Positions 51,418 through 63,785 of a stretch of 64,000 bases of DNA are shown here, one piece after another. Under the pieces are notes generated by a model, which did not search any database, was not told the DNA's origin, and saw nothing but the letters and a program-made list of their open reading frames with translations. The stretch lies in assembly GCA_963665095.1 (NCBI GenBank), contig OY762069.1, positions 3,008,001 to 3,072,000 on the forward strand. The letters run 5' to 3'. Source of the stretch: an uncultured Desulfobacter sp. (GTDB lineage Bacteria > Desulfobacterota > Desulfobacteria > Desulfobacterales > Desulfobacteraceae). A program made the position numbers and the translations under genes. The stretch's first letter is position 1, and every line of letters starts with the position of its first letter.

Positions 51418-52053
51418 TTATGCCTTACCGGCAGCTTTCATGGAACTGTTAAATACAGCATAAAATGTTTCATGTTCAGACAGGGCCACGGCCAGAATAT
51501 CATCCACTAAAGAGGCGTCCTGCTGCTCCAGGTCCTGGGATCTGATGACGTAATTTACACTGAAATGAAGCGCTGTCATGGCGTTTCCAGTCTCAACCCC
51601 CGGGCTGACCTGCACCAGGCAGATATTGCGCCGAAGGGACATATCCATACCATTCATATGCTGGGCCATACGCTTGTCAGCATCAAAATCATCATCCACC
51701 AGTACCAGAGGATATGTACTGTATTCAAGGTTTCTCAATGCATGGGCCGCCTCCTGGGCAACATGGGCCACAAAACCGGCATTCTCCAGGCCGCTTATCA
51801 CACGATTACGTCCCAGGGACGGTACCATGCACACCAGGGCCTGTTTCATGCTGCCTGCCTGAAACCTTGACAGATTCTGGTCAGCCGGCGGGGCCTTGGG
51901 CTCTGTAGCCACCTGTCCAGAATTCAATTCAGATGCCTTGACAGGAACCGAGGACCCGCACCCCGGACATTTAAAGGAAAAATCCCGGTCTTTGGGAATT
52001 TTGTGGTCCGGAAGCTCGGTGTCCTTTCCGCATGACGGGCAATTAATATTCAT
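51418..52053 (-). CDS. Zinc-ribbon (MJ0042-like) + receiver-like domain protein
   Basis: INCPSCG..PDHKIP..FKCPGCG, then a C-terminal beta/alpha domain (YPLVLVDDDF). Overlaps the upstream ATPase stop. Confidence 0.72.
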   Translation of the reverse strand: MNINCPSCGKDTELPDHKIPKDRDFSFKCPGCGSSVPVKASELNSGQVATEPKAPPADQNLSRFQAGSMKQALVCMVPSLGRNRVISGLENAGFVAHVAQEAAHALRNLEYSTYPLVLVDDDFDADKRMAQHMNGMDMSLRRNICLVQVSPGVETGNAMTALHFSVNYVIRSQDLEQQDASLVDDILAVALSEHETFYAVFNSSMKAAGKA

Positions 52054-53219
52054 CTGTCATATCCCCCATACCCCTTGTCAATTTCAAGGGATGCAATCCC
52101 GCTGGTGGATTCACCCCTGGCGCTCTTGATGCTGTCAAGCCCTCTTCCCACGATATCCTGCCTTGACGCATAACCGAGTGCCGTGGCTTCGTCGATCTTT
52201 CCCTCTTCATACAGGCGGATAATATACTCGTCAAAGGAAATCATGCCTTGGGCCTTGCCCGCAACAATGATGTCATTAAATGTCTTCCCTTCAGATTCCC
52301 CGTTAAGGATGGAATCTTTGACACGCAAATTGGTGCCCATCATTTCAAAAGCAGCCACACGCCCCCCCCCGACCTTGGGCAGAAGCCTTTGGGCCACCAC
52401 CCACCTGACCGTATCTGCCAGCCGGATGCGGACCTGCCGCTCCTCTTCTGTGGAAAACATGCCCAGCACACGGTTGATGGTCTGCCCCGCATCCACGGTG
52501 TGCAGGGTGGAGAGCACCAGATGCCCGGTCTCGGCCGCTGCCAGACCAATTTCAACGGTTTCCCGGTCCCGCATCTCACCCACCAGAATCACTTTGGGGG
52601 CCTGGCGTAAGGCCGCCCGCAGGCCTGAGGCAAAGGTATCAAAATCCATGCCCAGCTCACGCTGGTTAAAGGTGGAGCGCTTCTGCTGATGCTGGTACTC
52701 AATGGGGTCCTCAAGGGTGATGACATGAACGGATTTCGTTTCATTAATTTTATCCAGCAATGCGGCAAGGGAGGTGGATTTACCAGACCCTGTGGCACCG
52801 GTGACAAAAATAATACCGTTTTTTACATCGGCCATGGTATGAAAACTCTGGGGAAGGTTCAGCATCTCAATGGTAGGGATGGTGGCTTCAAGTTTTCGTA
52901 ACACAATGGCGTATTTGCCTGATCTGGAAAATATATTTACCCTGAATCTGGCCTTGGTGCCCAGCTGATAGGACAAATCGCAGCTGCCTTCACGCAGCAG
53001 GGTTTCGGTGAGTTTTCTGTCATTATGGAGCAGATTCAACGCCAAAGCTTCCGTCTGAAACGGGGTCAAAATTTTAAAATCCGGCTCCATATCCACAGCA
53101 ACAAGCTGGCCTGAACTCTCCACCTGAAGGGGCTTTCCCGGTGTGAAGTTAAGGTCCGACACATTGCCGTGGGCATCCAGCATTTTGGAAAGGATATAGT
53201 CAAGCTGCTGTTTTTTCAT
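52050..53219 (-). CDS. PilT/PilU-family pilus retraction ATPase
   Basis: GATGSGKST, TLEDPIEY, ALRQAPKVILVGEMRD and GHLVLSTLH motifs. Confidence 0.93.
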   Translation of the reverse strand: MKKQQLDYILSKMLDAHGNVSDLNFTPGKPLQVESSGQLVAVDMEPDFKILTPFQTEALALNLLHNDRKLTETLLREGSCDLSYQLGTKARFRVNIFSRSGKYAIVLRKLEATIPTIEMLNLPQSFHTMADVKNGIIFVTGATGSGKSTSLAALLDKINETKSVHVITLEDPIEYQHQQKRSTFNQRELGMDFDTFASGLRAALRQAPKVILVGEMRDRETVEIGLAAAETGHLVLSTLHTVDAGQTINRVLGMFSTEEERQVRIRLADTVRWVVAQRLLPKVGGGRVAAFEMMGTNLRVKDSILNGESEGKTFNDIIVAGKAQGMISFDEYIIRLYEEGKIDEATALGYASRQDIVGRGLDSIKSARGESTSGIASLEIDKGYGGYDR

Positions 53220-53251
53220 GCCTTACTCCTGGAAATAGACTAAACCGTTTA

Positions 53252-54334
53252 TCAGGCTTCTGTAAAATCCGTGGGCGGCGTCTTAAGAAAGGGCCTGAAC
53301 AGGGATTTATTATTGGCCTTGGCATACGCTTCATCCGGGCTGATCTTCCCTTTTTTATACAGATCCATGATGGCATCATCCAGAAGCTGCATGCCGTACT
53401 GTTTTCCGGTCTGAATCATGGAAGGGATCTGGTGGGTTTTGGATTCACGGATTAAATTTCTCACCGCGGGGGTTGCCACAAGGATTTCCAGGGCCGCGCA
53501 CCGGCCTTTTTTGTCTACGCGTTTAAACAGCACCTGGGCCACCACGGCCCTGAGACCATCTGCCAGAGTGGAGCGAATCTGGGCCTGTTCGGTGCTGGGG
53601 AACACCTCAATGATTCTGTCCACGGTTTTGTGTGCACTTGAGGTATGCAGGGTGCCGAATACCAGGTGGCCGGTGGAGGCAGCTTCTATGGCCAGAGAGA
53701 TGGTTTCAAGATCCCGGAGCTCGCCAACCAGGATAATATCCGGATCTTCACGCAGGGCACCGCGAAGCGCTGCGGAAAACGTTTTGGTATGAAGGCCAAC
53801 CTCCCTGTGGTTCACAATACAGCTCTGGCTTTTGTGTACAAACTCAATGGGGTCTTCCACGGTAATAATATGATCTTTCCGGTGCTGATTGGCCTGGTCA
53901 ATGATGGCTGCCAGGGTCGTTGATTTACCAGACCCCGTAGGCCCTGTTACGAGTACAAGCCCCCTTGGCAGATCTGCCAGCTTGGAAATGACGGGGGGCA
54001 GCCCGAGTTGATCCGTGGTCATGATATCAGACGGAATTTCACGAAATACGGCTGCTATGCCGTTTTTCTGCATGAAATAGTTGGCCCTGTACCGGGCAAG
54101 GCCTGGAATTTCGTAAGCAAAATCCACATCCCCGGTCTCTTCAAACACCTTGATTTTTTCCTGGGAAGTGATTTCATTCAACATTGCCCGCAGCTTATCA
54201 TTGGTCAACTTGTCGTATTTAATTCTCTCAATATCACCATGAAGCCTCAAAGCCGGCTGCTGCCCGGCGGTCAGGTGCAGATCCGAAGCACCCTGTTCAT
54301 GCATCAATTTAAAAAACGCATCTATTTCAGCCAT
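53252..54334 (-). CDS. pilT: Twitching motility ATPase PilT
   Basis: ASDLHL, GPTGSGKST, ALREDPDIILVGELRD and AVRNLIRE motifs. Confidence 0.96.
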   Translation of the reverse strand: MAEIDAFFKLMHEQGASDLHLTAGQQPALRLHGDIERIKYDKLTNDKLRAMLNEITSQEKIKVFEETGDVDFAYEIPGLARYRANYFMQKNGIAAVFREIPSDIMTTDQLGLPPVISKLADLPRGLVLVTGPTGSGKSTTLAAIIDQANQHRKDHIITVEDPIEFVHKSQSCIVNHREVGLHTKTFSAALRGALREDPDIILVGELRDLETISLAIEAASTGHLVFGTLHTSSAHKTVDRIIEVFPSTEQAQIRSTLADGLRAVVAQVLFKRVDKKGRCAALEILVATPAVRNLIRESKTHQIPSMIQTGKQYGMQLLDDAIMDLYKKGKISPDEAYAKANNKSLFRPFLKTPPTDFTEA

Positions 54335-57089: not shown

Positions 57090-57542
57090 ATGTTTGGTCT
57101 TGGAATGCCGGAAATCTTGTTGATACTGGCCATTGCACTGATTGTCATCGGCCCCCAGAAACTGCCGGAAGTCGCTAAAACCCTTGGCAGGGCAATGGGA
57201 GAATTTAAACGGTCTGCCCAGGATTTAAAAAGATCCATCGATATAGATACCACACCGGTAAAAGAAGAAGTAAAACCGAGGCCTGCAAAGAAAAAACTCA
57301 AAGATGTGATCAAGGAGATGACTTCGGAAGAGTCTGAAGAGTCCACGCCGGCATCCCAGCCCCCTGTTACGGCCAAAAGTGACACCACACGTTCCCAGGA
57401 CGACGCTACGAAGTCGGAACAGCCGTCACAGGAGAGCCCGTCCGGCGCTGCCGACGCTTCTTCATACGCCCCGGACTGTGATCCTGTATCAGAAAATTCA
57501 GATACAGCTGCCAAGTCTGCCACAGAATCGTCTAAATCCTAA
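57090..57542 (+). CDS. tatB: Twin-arginine translocase TatB (TatA/B family)
   Basis: MFGLGMPEILLILAIALIVIGPQKLPEVA, located upstream of tatC. Confidence 0.85.
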   Translation: MFGLGMPEILLILAIALIVIGPQKLPEVAKTLGRAMGEFKRSAQDLKRSIDIDTTPVKEEVKPRPAKKKLKDVIKEMTSEESEESTPASQPPVTAKSDTTRSQDDATKSEQPSQESPSGAADASSYAPDCDPVSENSDTAAKSATESSKS

Positions 57543-57560
57543 ATCAGTCAGGTATCTGCC

Positions 57561-58409
57561 ATGAGCGACCAGGAAGGAAAAAGCCCTTTTACCGAACATT
57601 TAGGAGAGTTGAGGGATCGCCTGATTCACTCCTTCATTGCCGTAGGTATCGGATTTGTTGCCGCATATTTTTTTAAAGAAAAATTATTTGAACTGCTGAC
57701 CGCCCCTCTAGTTACAGCCATGTCTGAAAGCGGCCATGCCAAGCTGATCTTTACCGGACTGCCTGAAGCTTTCTTCACCTACCTCAAGGTCGCCCTGATG
57801 GCCGGCATTATCCTTGCCACCCCGGTTCTGTTTTATGAATTCTGGATGTTTGTTTCACCCGGGCTGTACAGAAATGAAAAAAAATATATTCTACCCATTA
57901 TTCTGTTATCCGTTATTTTCTTTATGGCAGGGTCATCATTCGGGTATTTCATTGTTTTCCCGTACGGATTTCAGTTTTTCTTAGGTTTTACCACAGAAAC
58001 CATCCAGGCCATGCCCTCCATGAAAGAGTACCTTTCATTTGCATCTAAAATGCTTCTGGCCTTTGGTTTTGTTTTTGAACTGCCCCTGGTGCTGACTTTT
58101 CTCTCCCGCATGGGCCTGGTCTCCACCGATTTTTTAAAAAAGAACAGAAAATATGCCCTGCTCTTATTTTTCGTAGGCGCTGCCATCATCACCCCGCCGG
58201 ATGTGGTCACCCAGGTCATGATGGCCATGCCACTCATTCTCCTGTATGAGATAGGAATCATCGGCGCAATGGTTTTCGGGCGAAAATCCCCGGTTCAGGA
58301 TGATGAGGCAGAGGAAGACGGAAATGGGGAAGACACAACTCAGGAAGAAATTCTTGACGATGACGGAGTACCCGGCAGTGATACGGATGATGAAGAGATC
58401 ATTGATTAA
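57561..58409 (+). CDS. tatC: Twin-arginine translocase TatC
   Basis: EHLGELRDRL, FVSPGLY..EK, FELP and ITPPDVVTQ motifs. Confidence 0.97.
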   Translation: MSDQEGKSPFTEHLGELRDRLIHSFIAVGIGFVAAYFFKEKLFELLTAPLVTAMSESGHAKLIFTGLPEAFFTYLKVALMAGIILATPVLFYEFWMFVSPGLYRNEKKYILPIILLSVIFFMAGSSFGYFIVFPYGFQFFLGFTTETIQAMPSMKEYLSFASKMLLAFGFVFELPLVLTFLSRMGLVSTDFLKKNRKYALLLFFVGAAIITPPDVVTQVMMAMPLILLYEIGIIGAMVFGRKSPVQDDEAEEDGNGEDTTQEEILDDDGVPGSDTDDEEIID

Positions 58410-58627: not shown

Positions 58628-59095
58628 ATGAGTAAAAAAAGTATCACACTTCTGCTGGCTGCAGGTATTGCTGTGATTTTTCTTGCCACCGGACTTCAGG
58701 CAGGCACCAAGGTAAATGACGTCATTACCATGGAGAGCAAGGTTATCAAAAACCGCAAAAAAGGGCCTGACGCTAAAAAGCCGTGTAAACTGGTTGAGTT
58801 CACCCATAAAAAACACAGTGAAGATTACAAACTTTCCTGTGGTGACTGCCACCACGACAAAGACGGCAAACCCCTTGCCAGCCTGAAAATGGGTGATGAT
58901 GTAAAAAAATGTGACGAATGCCACAATCGCGAAAAAGCCAAAGCATCAGACAAAACCTTTCAGGGCAAATACAAGAAAAAACCTGTGGATATTAAACAGT
59001 ATGAATCAGCCATTCACGAGAACTGCATTGGCTGCCACAAGGAAAAAGGCCTGAAAGAAGGCACCAAATGCGGTGACTGCCATAAAAATATGTAG
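58628..59095 (+). CDS. Tetraheme class III cytochrome c3
   Basis: Signal peptide, four CxxCH motifs (CGDCH, CDECH, CIGCH, CGDCH) and four extra His (FTHKKH, CHH, AIH). Confidence 0.93.
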   Translation: MSKKSITLLLAAGIAVIFLATGLQAGTKVNDVITMESKVIKNRKKGPDAKKPCKLVEFTHKKHSEDYKLSCGDCHHDKDGKPLASLKMGDDVKKCDECHNREKAKASDKTFQGKYKKKPVDIKQYESAIHENCIGCHKEKGLKEGTKCGDCHKNM

Positions 59096-59137: not shown

Positions 59138-59174
59138 AAAGGGGAAAATCACAAACAAGATTTTCCCCTTTTTT
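59138..59174 (+). terminator. Intrinsic terminator of cytochrome c3
   Basis: AAAGGGGAAAATC-N8-GATTTTCCCCTTT followed by TTT. Confidence 0.8.
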
Positions 59175-59303: not shown

Positions 59304-61511
59304 TCATCCCACACACCCAAGGCTTGGATCCTGCACCACAATGGTACGTCTCCGACGCTTCTTTTTCACCTGGCAAAGCAGGGTTTTATACACCGGAAAC
59401 CCGGATATGGGATCAAACTGCTCCAGGTCCGTGAGTACATTGACATTGGCCTTGCGCCAGGATTCAGATCCCAAAGGACCACCCCCACCCACAGGCGCAT
59501 AGACAAAGCCGGCCATCACATCGTCGGTAACATAGGCACGCATCTCCACAAAACCTCTGGCTGTTTTCACCACCACGGCATCCCCGGGTTCAATTTTTCT
59601 GTCTGCCGCGTCCTTTGGATTCATCTGAACCAGGGGATCGGGGTATTTTTTAATAAAATCGGGGATGGCCCTTAAACAGGACTTCATGTCCGGCTTAAAT
59701 GGTCCGGTCCCAAGCACCAGTGGGAAACGACCTACCATGAGCGGGCGGCTAACAGGGGTTTCAAAGGACTCCTCATATTTGGGCAGGCCCTCATATCCCA
59801 TCTTTTCAAGCAGACAAGATTTAATCTCAAACTTACCTGACGGGGTTTCAAATCCGGGTTTTCCGTCCTTTCGTAAAAGCCCTGTTTCCCATTTCCTGTA
59901 GGCCATGGGTTCTGCTTTCTGACGATATGTCAGACGCTCATCCTGTTCAAGATCAGCCCTTGAAATGCCAGTGCCCTTGAGCGCCTGATCCAAAAGCGTG
60001 ATTTCATCGGCCGGGAACCGGTCTGCATACCCAAGTTTTCCCGCCAGTTCCGTTAAAATCGTAAAGCATGGCCTGCTGTCCCCCACCGGCTCAATCATTT
60101 TTTCTCTCAACCTTACAGCATTGCCGTAAAAACAGTAGGAAGACTGCTCAAATGCGGTGGTGGCCGGCAGAACAATATCAGCCCAGGCGGCATCCCGGGT
60201 AAGCTGCAGGTCAATGCTCACCATAAAATCCAGGGCGTCAAAGGCCTTTTGCCACAGAATGGGATTGGGCCAGGAGGTAAGAATGGAGGCCCCGAGCACA
60301 AAAAGTCCCCGGATTTTATAGGGGTCGGACTCCAGAATGGCTTTAGGCAGACGGTTGGCATGGGGCTCACCGCCGCAGAAATGGGCATACACCGGGAAAT
60401 GACCGGCACCGATGGATTTATCAAACCCCGGTGTGGCAATCTGGTGATCTTTGTTCAAATGGATCTGATTTTCATGGCGGACAAAACAGCGGCCCCCCTC
60501 CACATCCATCTGTCCGGCCAGCGCCCAGAGGACCTGCACCGCCCGGATGTTCTGGACACCGGATTTGGTATACTCCAGCCCTGTGTACATCACATAACTG
60601 GCCCCTTCGGCGTCTGCAATCTCTTCGGCCAGTTCCATGATCAGGTCCCGGGGAACACTGGTGATGCCGGCCACGGTCTCCGGGGTAAATTCTTCCACAT
60701 ACCGGACGAACTCGTCATACCCGACAGTCCACTCTTCCACAAAGGCGTGGTCCACCCACCCCTCCCGGATTAAAATATGGCACAGACCCAGGGCCAGGGC
60801 ACCGTCCGTACCCGGACGGATGGGCACCCACAAACTGTCCGGCAGTTTGGCAGATGCGGTCTGCCTTGGATCTATAACAATAATCCGTGCCCCTTCATGG
60901 GCAGCCCTGACCAGACGGCCGAACATGGCGGGCGGCGTGGAGGTGGACGGGTCTGTGCCCCAGACAAAGATCAAATCTGAATTATCCACGTCAGAAAACA
61001 TATCCGTGTGCAGACATCCGCAGGTCAGCTGAGGGGCCAGCACACCCAGGGAGGTGTAGCAGGGCGCCCCTACCCCAAAGGTATTGGGCGACCCATAGGG
61101 AAACAGAATACTTGAGGCCAGATAGATATGGGAACCGGCCAGCTGGAAGGCATCTTTAAATGCCCGCTCATAGGAGCCTGTACCCGCGTAAAACCCCAAT
61201 GCCTCTGGCCCGAGCCTCGCTTTAATTTTTTCCATATTTTCGGCAATAAGATCAAAGGCTTCATCCCAGGAAATTGGTTCAAAATCAAGTTTTCCCTTGG
61301 GACCTGTCCGCTTTAACGGCTGTCGGATCCGATCCTTTGAATAAATGATCTGCTTTGCACTGGCAGCCATGGGGCACAGTACCTCGCCCATGGGGGCATC
61401 AGGATCCGGAGTGAGCCGGTCGATTTTTCCATCATCATCAAAATGAACCATCACCCCGCATCCGGGGCTGTGAAAACATAATCCGCAAATGCCTGGTTTC
61501 TGCGTTTCCAA
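59304..61511 (-). CDS. Cytoplasmic molybdopterin/tungstopterin enzyme (acetylene-hydratase/MES-like)
   Basis: CGLCFHSPGC...C Fe-S motif, RIRQPLKR, ISWDEA, IVIDPR, RPGTDGALALG, ADIVLPA and TPSGKFE. No Tat signal. TTG start after GGAAGGAGG. Confidence 0.9.
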   Translation of the reverse strand: METQKPGICGLCFHSPGCGVMVHFDDDGKIDRLTPDPDAPMGEVLCPMAASAKQIIYSKDRIRQPLKRTGPKGKLDFEPISWDEAFDLIAENMEKIKARLGPEALGFYAGTGSYERAFKDAFQLAGSHIYLASSILFPYGSPNTFGVGAPCYTSLGVLAPQLTCGCLHTDMFSDVDNSDLIFVWGTDPSTSTPPAMFGRLVRAAHEGARIIVIDPRQTASAKLPDSLWVPIRPGTDGALALGLCHILIREGWVDHAFVEEWTVGYDEFVRYVEEFTPETVAGITSVPRDLIMELAEEIADAEGASYVMYTGLEYTKSGVQNIRAVQVLWALAGQMDVEGGRCFVRHENQIHLNKDHQIATPGFDKSIGAGHFPVYAHFCGGEPHANRLPKAILESDPYKIRGLFVLGASILTSWPNPILWQKAFDALDFMVSIDLQLTRDAAWADIVLPATTAFEQSSYCFYGNAVRLREKMIEPVGDSRPCFTILTELAGKLGYADRFPADEITLLDQALKGTGISRADLEQDERLTYRQKAEPMAYRKWETGLLRKDGKPGFETPSGKFEIKSCLLEKMGYEGLPKYEESFETPVSRPLMVGRFPLVLGTGPFKPDMKSCLRAIPDFIKKYPDPLVQMNPKDAADRKIEPGDAVVVKTARGFVEMRAYVTDDVMAGFVYAPVGGGGPLGSESWRKANVNVLTDLEQFDPISGFPVYKTLLCQVKKKRRRRTIVVQDPSLGCVG

Positions 61512-61524
61512 ACGACCTCCTTCC

Positions 61525-62478
61525 CTAATCCATTGATCTTGCCGCTAATATAAACTGAGAGGTAATATGCTCCCACAAATGCCGGGTTTTCCTGATTTTC
61601 CACAAGAGCTGACCTTTGTCCTCTATGGTAAACCCTGGCGCAAAGGGGCCTTGGGCATCTTCAAGCAAGTGGCAGACATTTTCCATTCCAAATCCCTTGA
61701 ACGGACCGTCAAGGGTGCCGCCAAGCCACAGATCCGGACTGCTGACACTTTCATCCCAGGAAAAAGGATCTGAAAAAAGGAATCTGGCATTGGTTTTATC
61801 CATGACCCGGTTGGCTTCCTGTAAATGGCGTTCAGGGTACGGGACCTTTTCCAGAATGTTAACGGAACTTGCCGTGGCAAACCGGCTGGAACGAAACGGC
61901 AGGGCCATGGCATCAGCGACGATGAACTCTGCATTGGCAAACCCGTAACCTGCATCCAGCTCACAGGAACGTTTCTCAGTGATCTGGCCCTCCATGATCA
62001 GGTCAAATTCCAGGCGTCGGGTTTGGGCAAGGGTTCTGGCGGCCCGGATAAAAGAGATGGAGGTGTCAATACCCACAGCCCTGTCATGGCTTTTTGTCAT
62101 CTCAAAGGTCAGCCGCCCTACAGAACAGCCAATATCCAGTGCCCAGCCGGATCGTGGTGCACTGAATGCCCCTGCCCATTTGCGGTAGGCATCTGTGGCG
62201 TCGGGTCCGTTAAAAAATTCGGAATAATGACTCCATAAATAGGAGGAGAGCATGGAAAACGAATTGTACCCGGCTGTGTCCTGGATAATGGGCAGGGTAT
62301 GGTCAGGCACTACTAAGGCAATGCCCTGCCGGATCTCATACCGGTGCTGACAATTAGGACAAATCAGCTCCCCGTCAATAATATCATCCTCGGTTTCAAT
62401 GCGAATTTCCGGTTCAAGCACAAAATTGCTGCCCCGGCACTGGGGACAGATCAACTCTTCGATCAGCCATTTTTTCAT
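61525..62478 (-). CDS. Trm112-like Zn-knuckle + OvoA-C-terminal-like SAM methyltransferase
   Basis: LICPQC..LICPNC..YEIRQGI, LSSYLWSHY, ALDIGCSVGRLTFEM, GIDTSISFI, SDPFSW..WLGG and IRKT...H..SQ motifs. Confidence 0.82.
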   Translation of the reverse strand: MKKWLIEELICPQCRGSNFVLEPEIRIETEDDIIDGELICPNCQHRYEIRQGIALVVPDHTLPIIQDTAGYNSFSMLSSYLWSHYSEFFNGPDATDAYRKWAGAFSAPRSGWALDIGCSVGRLTFEMTKSHDRAVGIDTSISFIRAARTLAQTRRLEFDLIMEGQITEKRSCELDAGYGFANAEFIVADAMALPFRSSRFATASSVNILEKVPYPERHLQEANRVMDKTNARFLFSDPFSWDESVSSPDLWLGGTLDGPFKGFGMENVCHLLEDAQGPFAPGFTIEDKGQLLWKIRKTRHLWEHITSQFILAARSMD

Positions 62479-62739: not shown

Positions 62740-62781
62740 AAAAACCAGGCTGCTATTCCTGACAAAATAGCAGCCTGGTTT
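62740..62781 (-). terminator. Intrinsic terminator of the M55 peptidase gene
   Basis: AAACCAGGCTGCTATT-N8-AATAGCAGCCTGGTTT, with perfect 16-bp arms. Confidence 0.8.
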
Positions 62782-62802
62782 CAGAAAACAAATTTTTATA
62801 AA

Positions 62803-63606
62803 TCAGGAAACAAAAACAATCATCCGCAGGACTTCAAACCAGTCGGGGCTCTCAAAGGCAATGGTCCGGGCAGAAATCAAACGGGCTCCGGGGTAGAAGG
62901 CTTTCTCGTAGGCGTCGCTCACACGGTTATAAGTAATTTGAATACTGAAATGACCCGGCAGATCAATGGCTTTGGCTGCCAGGGGAGTTTCAAGGGCTTT
63001 CTTGGCCCCGGCCCGGATCGCGTCCACCGCCACATCGGGATGAAGGTTAACAGTGGAGCCGCCAAACCCCTCTTTAACAGCAACGGTGGTAATGCCGGGG
63101 ACAAGGTCCGGTGCACCGTTGCATAATTCTTTATCTCCGGAGATCATCACCACCGGCACATTCTCTAAAGCGGCTGTATAGGTATTAAGAAAAAACTCCG
63201 ATACAAACTCATGCCCGTTGATCCGGATGCCTGCAATCCTTTCCGAACTGATGGTATGGGCCAAAGGGTTACCGCTCCCCCCTGCCATGGTATGATACCC
63301 AATCATCATGGCTGCATCAAAACTATTATCAATCCCCTGCATCATAAAATAGGGGTGGGTTCCCCACCCGGAAATCACACGGGCCTGCGGCGGCAGCCGG
63401 CGGGGTATCAAATTGCGTGCTGTGGAGTGGGCGTCTTTGACCACAATCTCTGTGGCACCGGCCTCAAGAGCACCTTCGCAGGCCGCACACACCTCCCGGG
63501 TCAACTGCTCTTTATATACATCATAACCGTCCTGCCCTTTGGTGACTTCGCACCACTGGGTAACACCTGTCACCCCTTCCATATCCGTGCTGATAAATAC
63601 TTTCAT
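62803..63606 (-). CDS. M55-family D-aminopeptidase (DppA-like)
   Basis: MKVFISTDMEGVTGV, VKDAH, IGYH..LAHT, SGD and VAVKEG motifs. Confidence 0.93.
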   Translation of the reverse strand: MKVFISTDMEGVTGVTQWCEVTKGQDGYDVYKEQLTREVCAACEGALEAGATEIVVKDAHSTARNLIPRRLPPQARVISGWGTHPYFMMQGIDNSFDAAMMIGYHTMAGGSGNPLAHTISSERIAGIRINGHEFVSEFFLNTYTAALENVPVVMISGDKELCNGAPDLVPGITTVAVKEGFGGSTVNLHPDVAVDAIRAGAKKALETPLAAKAIDLPGHFSIQITYNRVSDAYEKAFYPGARLISARTIAFESPDWFEVLRMIVFVS

Positions 63607-63785
63607 ATAACCAATTCCTTTGCATTCATTAAAAGGTCTGCTTGTTACCGAGGCAGGATCCATCTGGCCTGTCACCATATCAACCAATATTTCCAAGCGT
63701 TGGCATTTTGTGGGTATGCCAAATTTTTGTCAATATTTTATTAAAAACCATGAATTTGGGGGTAATGGGGAATGCTTGGCCAAGA

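What the first reader, a model, noticed from the sequence alone, without database searches (positions are those of the whole stretch)
59304..62478. Candidate oxygen-independent ovothiol/thiohistidine pathway: OvoA-type methyltransferase + MES-like metallopterin enzyme
Seen: two co-oriented genes 13 nt apart with a strong SD, separated from the upstream peptidase by a terminator. The first has the motif series Y-x5-LSSYLWSHY, ALDIGCSVGRLTFEM, MEGQITEKRSC, SDPFSW-x8-WLGG and IRKT-x4-H-x2-SQ. From memory these match the C-terminal thiohistidine N-methyltransferase domain of OvoA. The second is a Tat-less bis-MGD enzyme with no electron-transfer partner gene. Its segments FPYGSPNTFGVGAPCY and VMYTGLEY..SGVQNIRA..LWALAGQMDVEGG resemble, from memory, the acetylene-hydratase-related module of metallopterin-dependent ergothioneine synthase (MES). 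Established: OvoA forms the C-S bond with O2 and non-heme iron, while MES forms an imidazole C-S bond anaerobically. Inference: in this anaerobe a MES-like enzyme replaces the OvoA sulfoxide synthase, sulfurating histidine (probably at C5), and the methyltransferase then gives ovothiol or an analogue. I know of no described pathway with this pairing.
Basis: partly seen in the sequence, partly recalled or inferred. Interest (0 to 1): 0.9.

Follow-up and report, generated by a model that had tools for sequence, protein, structure and literature searches.

The report
Candidate oxygen-free ovothiol-like pathway
Two adjacent genes that travel together in many sulfate-reducing bacteria encode a molybdenum/tungsten enzyme, whose closest relatives put sulfur on a histidine derivative without oxygen, and a methyltransferase distantly related to the one that finishes the antioxidant ovothiol, so the pair likely makes a methylated sulfur-histidine compound by an oxygen-free route, though the product is untested.

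Summary
The gene pair is real and tightly coupled: 21 of 22 genome loci (the other is cut off), and 18 of 24 congeners have both genes, 6 neither. The Mo/W enzyme is the sister clade of metallopterin ergothioneine synthase (MES): 48-53% identical, IQ-TREE 100/100. It lacks MES's fused desulfurase but ends in a predicted flexible arm with a cysteine (119 of 120 homologs), like MES's essential relay cysteine. That supports sulfur transfer with a donor in trans. The methyltransferase folds like OvoM/OvsM (Z 22-24) but is not a member: 95 bits against a cut-off of 170, and it falls in a separate Trm112-fused sister clade. That clade also pairs with an unrelated Mo enzyme, with a B12 radical SAM plus dipeptidase, and with type VI secretion genes (a paralog in this genome scores as well against OvoM). 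Best reading (about 0.5): oxygen-free synthesis of a methylated thiohistidine; ovothiol A itself about 0.25. No such route turned up in nine literature searches. The scan noted the same pair on at least four other genomes. New variant of a known kind, testable in cultured strains.

The parts
61525..62478 (-). SAM-dependent methyltransferase, 317 aa: Trm112-like N-terminal domain plus an OvoM/OvsM-like class I domain
62302..62478 (-). Trm112-like domain (residues 1-59) with invariant C11, C14, C40, C43, likely a Zn site
   Evidence: PF03966 35.8 bits; invariant in 57 aligned homologs
61512..61524 (-). 13-nt intergenic gap with a Shine-Dalgarno (AAGGAGG) before the TTG start
   Evidence: sequence
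59304..61511 (-). Stand-alone bis-MGD (Mo/W) enzyme, 735 aa, sister of the MES N-terminal module
61374..61487 (-). Predicted [4Fe-4S] cysteines C9, C12, C18, C46, with a clade-specific two-residue insertion (F13-H14); no Lys/Arg at position 48
61059..61061 (-). Cys151, predicted metal ligand, equivalent to MES Cys153 (GVGAPCY vs GVGALCY)
   Evidence: invariant in 107 aligned proteins; MES sequences read
59304..59351 (-). C-terminal arm (residues 721-735, ending QDPSLGCVG) with Cys733, predicted flexible; candidate persulfide carrier
   Evidence: Cys at -3 or -2 in 119 of 120 homologs; pLDDT <50; absent in outgroup clades
62741..62782 (-). Terminator-like hairpin after the upstream D-aminopeptidase gene
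59138..59171 (.). Terminator-like hairpin between the pair and the convergent cytochrome c3 gene

Best explanation
The two genes form a conserved cassette whose Mo/W enzyme likely transfers a sulfur atom onto the imidazole ring of histidine or a close derivative without oxygen, and whose methyltransferase likely methylates the product to give an ovothiol-like methyl-thiohistidine. Inferred cycle, by analogy to the MES proposal (PMC9516567): a persulfide on Cys733 of the flexible C-terminal arm re-sulfurates the metal (Cys151-ligated Mo/W=S). The imidazole attacks the sulfido ligand and thiohistidine is released, so no electron-transfer partner is needed. The arm would be loaded in trans (a free desulfurase, a rhodanese or DsrC-type carrier, or polysulfide), replacing MES's fused desulfurase. 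Shown: gene order, coupling, phylogeny, conserved residues and predicted folds. Inferred: substrate, direction, sulfur donor, ring position (C5 or C2), methylation site and order of steps.
For: (1) Sister to MES: 50-53% identity to the best 120 long homologs, nearly all MES-type desulfurase fusions; 52% over 718 aa to a Calditrichaeota one; IQ-TREE 100/100, FastTree 0.997. 225 columns are at least 90% conserved and identical in both clades; some of them (D120, Q123, Y152, E382, H384) are not conserved in the outgroup clade. (2) A terminal Cys occurs in 119 of 120 homologs on a predicted disordered arm. 119 of 120 MES-type proteins also end in a Cys, and MES Cys1135 is essential (PMC9516567). 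The outgroup clades lack it. (3) Position 48 (Lys/Arg in the outgroup and in clade D) is hydrophobic in all 109 of 120 scored homologs and in 120 of 120 MES; this fits a cycle with no external electron partner (role of this residue recalled). (4) Parallel logic: MES fusions had an EgtD-type gene nearby in 16 of 20 loci; this clade has the OvoM-like MTase directly upstream in 7 of 7 other phylum-sample genomes. (5) MTase model: the top seven VIA hits are OvoM, OvoA and OvsM (Z 21.9-23.8), next best 17.4; Y71, Y80, H84, N207, W241 and R296 match the OvoA-C consensus. (6) The 32 fixed differences from MES cluster around the ligand loop, with bulkier Y130/L131 and loss of MES's Arg at 380; this fits a substrate other than trimethylhistidine, and EgtD was not found in 30 of 30 cassette genomes first tested. 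A SAM-consuming partner and no transporter gene favour synthesis (inference).
Against: The MTase is outside the OvoA-C/OvoM clade (100/99) and below the family cut-off. The T6SS-cluster paralog in this genome scores 58-70 bits and a clade-D MTase 50-71 bits against the same solved proteins, so the hit is not diagnostic. Of 39 sub-cut-off matches in 401 genomes only 8 belong to this cassette. 16 pair with an unrelated Mo enzyme that lacks the Cys arm, 4 with a B12 radical SAM, 9 have no such neighbour, and 2 are T6SS-like. Two clade-A MTases in metagenome loci with long flanks have no Mo gene beside them. OvoA-conserved NLIDR and RET-RKFQ read NILEK and RKT-HLWE here, although part of the second motif is a dimer interface in OvoA (PMC10696552). 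MES accepts sulfur only in cis, so a donor in trans is a real departure. Absence of OvoA/EgtD is weak evidence: at phylum base rates, chance absence in 30 genomes is 0.47 and 0.16, and one congener with the cassette has a partial EgtD-family hit. There are no biochemical or expression data.
Confidence: 0.5

Rival explanations
1. Same sulfur-transfer-plus-methylation chemistry, but the substrate is not free histidine: a peptide-bound histidine or another N-heterocycle.
For: The Trm112-fused MTase clade also works with a B12 radical SAM whose best NCBIfam match is the RiPP maturase ApyD (below cut-off). An M19 dipeptidase subfamily was found in only 7 of 401 genomes, all 7 carrying a MTase of this clade (four families, so not independent). 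It lies near the MTase in 8 of 91 loci and next to the radical SAM in two of the 'orphan' genomes. Pocket motifs differ from OvoM. The MES paper expects other heterocycle-sulfurating Mo enzymes.
Against: This genome has no M19 of that subfamily (best 24-29%) and no conserved precursor or third gene flanks the cassette. Both enzymes' nearest characterised relatives act on free histidine derivatives.
Confidence: 0.2
2. The Mo enzyme runs in reverse: it strips sulfur from scavenged thio-imidazoles (ergothioneine, ovothiol) onto its own Cys arm, which explains why no desulfurase is needed. The MTase methylates the substrate or product for salvage or detoxification.
For: MES with a dead desulfurase still exchanges sulfur between ergothioneine and TMH, so the step is reversible. 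The desulfurase domain is absent while a terminal Cys is kept.
Against: No transporter or downstream catabolic gene is conserved beside the pair. Spending SAM is unusual in catabolism (own knowledge). The strict two-gene coupling is not explained.
Confidence: 0.12
3. The MTase is a protein-modifying or maturation partner of the Mo enzyme (methylating a His or the arm Cys), and the Mo enzyme does some other hydration or redox reaction.
For: Related MTases pair one-to-one with two unrelated Mo enzyme clades (8 of 8 and 16 of 16) and lie among structural T6SS genes. Trm112 domains serve RNA and protein methyltransferases (own knowledge). RlmA(I) and CARNMT1 are the next structural hits.
Against: MES, the sister clade, is active in E. 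coli with no such MTase. MTases of the clade persist without any Mo neighbour. The Asp after the second cluster Cys of acetylene hydratase is not kept.
Confidence: 0.1

Closest known systems
Metallopterin-dependent ergothioneine synthase (MES, Caldithrix abyssi; Beliaeva & Seebeck 2022, PMC9516567) with EgtD
   Same: Sister clade, about 50% identity over the whole Mo module; same Cys ligand loop, cluster cysteines and terminal cysteine; coupled to a methyltransferase of a histidine-related family; anaerobic hosts.
   Different: No fused cysteine desulfurase; the terminal Cys sits on a short arm directly after the Mo module; 32 fixed differences around the active site; the partner is an OvoM-like rather than an EgtD methyltransferase.
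OvoM / OvsM / OvoA C-terminal domain (thio- and selenohistidine N-pi-methyltransferases; TIGR04345; PDB 9BXL, 9BXH, 8KHQ)
   Same: Best sequence and fold matches (Z 22-24, rmsd about 2.5 A); shared Tyr, Y-x3-H, N and W-x-GG motifs.
   Different: Below the cut-off; a separate sister clade; extra Trm112-like domain; NLIDR reads NILEK and RET-RKFQ reads RKT-HLWE; no sulfoxide or selenoxide synthase found in the genome.
Acetylene hydratase (PDB 2E7Z)
   Same: Best solved sequence and fold match of the Mo enzyme (E 1e-59; TM 0.84); Cys ligand; no Tat signal.
   Different: Only 25% identical in the structural alignment; the Asp after the second cluster Cys is replaced by F-H; MES is far closer.
EanB (rhodanese-type anaerobic ergothioneine synthase)
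   Same: Oxygen-free C-S bond formation on an imidazole from sulfane sulfur supplied in trans (described in PMC9516567).
   Different: Unrelated fold; acts on TMH at C2 with an EgtD-type partner.

Membership tests
MES | N-terminal acetylene-hydratase-related bis-MGD module, homologous over its full length | tested here: met
   48-53% identity over about 715 aa; sister clade 100/100
MES | Cys metal ligand (Cys153) and four [4Fe-4S] cysteines | tested here: met
   C151 and C9/C12/C18/C46 invariant in clade A; two-residue insertion
MES | Fused C-terminal PLP cysteine desulfurase acting in cis | tested here: not met
   735 aa, no PF00266; no desulfurase gene conserved beside the pair
MES | Terminal relay cysteine (Cys1135) | tested here: inconclusive
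   A terminal Cys is present in 119 of 120 homologs, but in a different sequence context; an analogy, homology not shown
MES | Co-encoded EgtD supplying trimethylhistidine | tested here: not met
   PF10017 not found in own genome or in 29 of 29 other cassette genomes; one partial hit in a congener
MES | Produces ergothioneine from TMH | not testable with these tools
   needs an assay
OvoA-C / OvoM / OvsM | TIGR04345 score above the curated cut-off of 170 | tested here: not met
   94.9 bits; 11 members in the same phylum score 337-355
OvoA-C / OvoM / OvsM | Nested in the OvoA-C/stand-alone OvoM clade | tested here: not met
   That clade is 100/99 without the query (57 of 119 rows; all 119 in FastTree). 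The solved OvoM/OvsM sequences were not in the tree, and the root rests on long outgroup branches.
OvoA-C / OvoM / OvsM | OvoM-type fold | tested here: met
   Z 21.9-23.8 over 231-237 residues, next 17.4; Foldseek top ten
OvoA-C / OvoM / OvsM | Substrate-recognition Tyr and catalytic Asp (recalled from the abstract of Ireland et al. 2025; paper not held) | tested here: inconclusive
   Y71 is invariant; the Asp of NLIDR is Glu210 in clade A; which Asp is catalytic could not be read
OvoA-C / OvoM / OvsM | N-pi-methylation of 5-thio- or 5-selenohistidine | not testable with these tools
   needs an assay
Ovothiol pathway (OvoA/OvoB) | O2-dependent non-haem iron sulfoxide synthase | tested here: not met
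   TIGR04344 best 42.9 bits vs cut-off 400 in own genome; none over the cut-off in 29 cassette genomes
Acetylene hydratase | Asp directly after the second cluster Cys (catalytic role recalled) | tested here: not met
   F13-H14 at that place

The most novel reading that the evidence does not exclude
This is the missing oxygen-independent route to ovothiol A: a stand-alone Mo/W enzyme sulfurates histidine at C5 rather than C2, using its own swinging persulfide arm loaded in trans. The arm's end (DPSLGCVG) resembles that of the sulfate-reduction carrier DsrC (PKPTGCV in this genome), so it may draw on respiratory sulfur. A Trm112-fused methyltransferase finishes the molecule, and the same methyltransferase clade has been recruited by two further unknown anaerobic routes (a second Mo enzyme; a B12 radical SAM with a dipeptidase).
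Probability: 0.25. Interest if true: 0.9.

Novelty: new variant of a known kind. Interest (0 to 1): 0.72.

Why it matters
Ergothioneine has two known oxygen-free routes, whereas ovothiol had one characterised route, oxygen-dependent, as of 2023 (PMC10696552), and a 2021 survey found OvoA in strict anaerobes surprising (PMC8433421). A confirmed product here would fill that gap. It would show how a Mo/W enzyme changes substrate or ring position for C-H sulfuration and give a smaller, desulfurase-free MES relative (full-length MES could not be purified, PMC9516567). It would also name a low-molecular-weight thiol in major marine sulfate reducers. Cultured strains carry the pair (Desulfobacter curvatus, D. 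latus, Dethiosulfatarculus sandiegensis), and an E. coli assay already exists for MES, so the test is direct. Even if the product is not ovothiol, it is a new C-S-forming candidate in the DMSO reductase family.

Tried and rejected
Complex prediction of the two proteins was not available, so physical interaction is untested. Sequencing runs: no RNA holder listed; no evidence either way on expression. The OvoM/OvsM structure paper is not held, so pocket residues could not be mapped. Mutual exclusion with OvoA or MES as evidence: rejected as not significant (P of no overlap 0.09-0.82), and four genomes with a related MTase also have full OvoA. Cytochrome c3 as electron partner: rejected (opposite strand, hairpin between, 4 of 91 loci). 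Upstream M55 peptidase as part of the unit: rejected (no match in the 91 related loci). The 381-aa start: rejected. A fusion of the Mo enzyme with the MTase: none among the best 120 long homologs, which carry desulfurase domains in all but one case; weak evidence only. The ESM Atlas gave only generic methyltransferase clusters. The sigma-70 promoter scan gave chance levels (3 found vs 3.6 expected). A selenium product (the best sequence hit is OvsM) was considered; no selenium gene recurs beside the pair, so it was left open. IQ-TREE failed to run (option clash); that tree is FastTree and was repeated on a subset.
Full report
Observation. The two ORFs, the 13-nt gap with a Shine-Dalgarno, and terminator-like hairpins on both sides are as described. 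The host is a 6.9-Mb genome whose closest relatives by this protein are Desulfobacter and other Desulfobacterales. The methyltransferase has a Trm112-like N-terminus and a class I domain. Its best NCBIfam match is ovoA_Cterm at 94.9 bits against a cut-off of 170, with the next class I methyltransferase family at E 4e-6. The Mo enzyme's best solved match is acetylene hydratase.

Coupling. In GTDB, 21 of 22 loci found with the MTase have the Mo gene directly downstream (72-89% identity); the 22nd contig ends there, and no flanking gene family recurs in more than 5 loci. In a 401-genome phylum sample, 8 genomes (own included) have this Mo clade, and the 7 others all have the MTase directly upstream (one split at a contig end). 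Among 24 congeners, 18 have both genes and 6 have neither, four of the six being at least 95% complete; 17 of the 18 are adjacent and one is split over two contigs. In metagenomes, of 19 loci closest to this MTase, 13 have the Mo gene adjacent, 4 end too early and 2 have long flanks without it.

The Mo enzyme. The best 120 long homologs are 50-53% identical, and all but one carry a class V aminotransferase (desulfurase) domain, i.e. MES architecture; 24 of the 401 genomes have such fusions, and 16 of 20 fetched loci have an EgtD-type neighbour (two confirmed as PF10017). FastTree on 107 rows and IQ-TREE on 35 of them make the window's clade the sister of MES (0.997; 100/100). Stand-alone enzymes of 40-47% identity lie outside, and none of the seven fetched had the MTase beside it. 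Comparing 29 clade members with 138 MES modules gave 225 shared conserved columns and 32 fixed differences, concentrated at residues 109-160 around Cys151, plus the F13-H14 insertion and C379, C460, C612. Position 48 is hydrophobic in both clades and mostly Arg or Lys in the others. The enzyme ends in a basic stretch and DP(S/T)LGC(V/G)G, with Cys at -3 in 117 and at -2 in 2 of 120 homologs. AlphaFold gives mean pLDDT 92.8, with residues 721-735 mostly below 50. MES ends in a cysteine that is essential for sulfur delivery, needs its desulfurase in cis, and catalyses reversible sulfur exchange (PMC9516567; I read parts 1-3 of 6 of the text and parts 1 and 3 of 4 of the supplement). The genome's DsrC-like protein (named from recall) ends PKPTGCV, and one NifS-type desulfurase lies elsewhere with no link to the pair; these are leads only.

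The methyltransferase. The model (pLDDT 88.3) matches OvoM, OvoA and OvsM far better than anything else. But the match is not diagnostic. A member over the cut-off scores 230-299 bits against those structures, the window protein 50-79, a clade-D relative 50-71, and a paralog in this genome 58-70. That paralog lies between PAAR and TssG-like genes in a T6SS cluster and scores 98.9 on TIGR04345. Trees put OvoA-C and stand-alone OvoM-like proteins in one clade (100/99) and all Trm112-fused proteins in another (93/85). The latter is split into the window's clade (100/97), a sister group (100/94) and T6SS-like proteins (100/100) (random subset of 57 of 119 rows; root uncertain). In the 401 genomes there were 11 matches over the cut-off and 39 below. 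The 39 are: 8 this cassette; 16 directly upstream of a different Mo enzyme (about 30% identical, no Cys arm, and all 16 of its close homologs have the MTase beside them); 4 beside a B12 radical SAM; 9 with neither; and 2 T6SS-like. An M19 dipeptidase subfamily was found in 7 of 401 genomes, all with such a MTase; in two of the nine 'orphan' genomes it sits beside the same radical SAM elsewhere. The clade therefore serves several systems.

Genome context. OvoA-N, EgtB and EgtD were not found in this 97%-complete genome; OvoA-N over the cut-off and EgtD were not found in 29 other cassette genomes (several incomplete). Given base rates this is not significant, and one congener has a partial EgtD-family hit.

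Mechanism and odds. Combining the MES kinship, the cysteine arm, the lost basic residue at 48, the remodelled pocket and an obligatory SAM-dependent partner of the imidazole-methylating fold, I put oxygen-free synthesis of a methylated thiohistidine at about 0.5 and ovothiol A itself at about 0.25. Regiochemistry can switch between close homologs among sulfoxide synthases (AshA vs OvoA; PMC13674229, passages), so C2 and C5 are both open. OvsM does not methylate plain histidine (PMC11030361, passages), which would favour sulfur first if it carries over. Rivals: a peptide-bound or other heterocyclic substrate (0.2), reverse desulfuration (0.12), protein methylation (0.1).

Literature. Nine full-text searches turned up no description of this pair or of an anaerobic ovothiol route; subscription papers are mostly not covered. 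I saw passages of PMC8433421, PMC13603875 and PMC10696552 and part 1 of 3 plus passages of PMC12631010. Of Ireland et al. 2025 (Structure) I saw only the citation; its active-site residues, which bear directly on the MTase assignment, are recalled. Supplements of bioRxiv preprints were not seen. The scan's own notes report the same pair on four other genomes; these are not independent support.

Verdict. A real, conserved, apparently undescribed cassette; a new variant of the MES kind with an OvoM-related but non-member methyltransferase. Interest 0.72.

Noticed in passing
G000:C1:803901-805010 (L001:1060-2166, +); also L179, L180, L188: A Trm112-fused OvoM-like methyltransferase lies directly downstream of a PAAR gene inside a type VI secretion cluster of this genome; the PAAR-MTase order recurs in three metagenome loci. 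Function unexplained.
   Followed up: partly
L130:5358-8562 and 15 other loci: A second obligate cassette ('clade D'): a sister methyltransferase plus an unrelated 687-aa acetylene-hydratase-like Mo enzyme (GNGS[VI]C ligand loop, Lys kept after the fourth cluster Cys, no Cys arm), in 16 of 401 Desulfobacterota genomes.
   Followed up: partly
L236:8916-13078; L231:4985-8357; L232:209-3540; L171: A third system: B12 radical SAM (best match ApyD, below cut-off) plus Trm112-fused methyltransferase plus an M19 dipeptidase subfamily found in only 7 of 401 genomes, all carrying the methyltransferase; possibly peptide-linked modification of histidine.
   Followed up: partly
L022, L026, L027, L030, L031, L038: In six cassette loci the same M19 dipeptidase-like subfamily lies divergently upstream of the methyltransferase; L031 reads H-x-G where the radical-SAM-linked L107 reads H-x-D.
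   Followed up: no
L044-L050; P0245: Stand-alone Mo enzymes 40-47% identical to the window enzyme form the outgroup of MES plus this clade, without desulfurase, Cys arm or conserved neighbours in the loci seen; candidates for other heterocycle chemistry.
   Followed up: partly
L141:5101-5955 (G249): A stand-alone OvoM over the TIGR04345 cut-off in a genome where no sulfoxide synthase or EgtD was found; its thiohistidine source is unexplained.
   Followed up: partly
L193, L196, L203, L205, L206, L213: Stand-alone 241-249-aa OvoM-like proteins, most with Cys in place of the NLIDR Asp, sit between a conserved 185-aa gene and a fatty acid desaturase, not beside a sulfoxide synthase.
   Followed up: no
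G000:C1:1451148-1451465 (L228:249-566): The DsrC-like protein ends PKPTGCV, similar to the Mo enzyme's arm (two homologs end exactly in LGCV).
   Followed up: no
window 58628-59095 (+), 62803-63609 (-), 57090-58409 (+), 52050-54334 (-): Ordinary neighbours: class III cytochrome c and M55 D-aminopeptidase (Pfam); tatB/tatC-like and two PilT-like ATPase genes (named from recall of the sequences).
   Followed up: no
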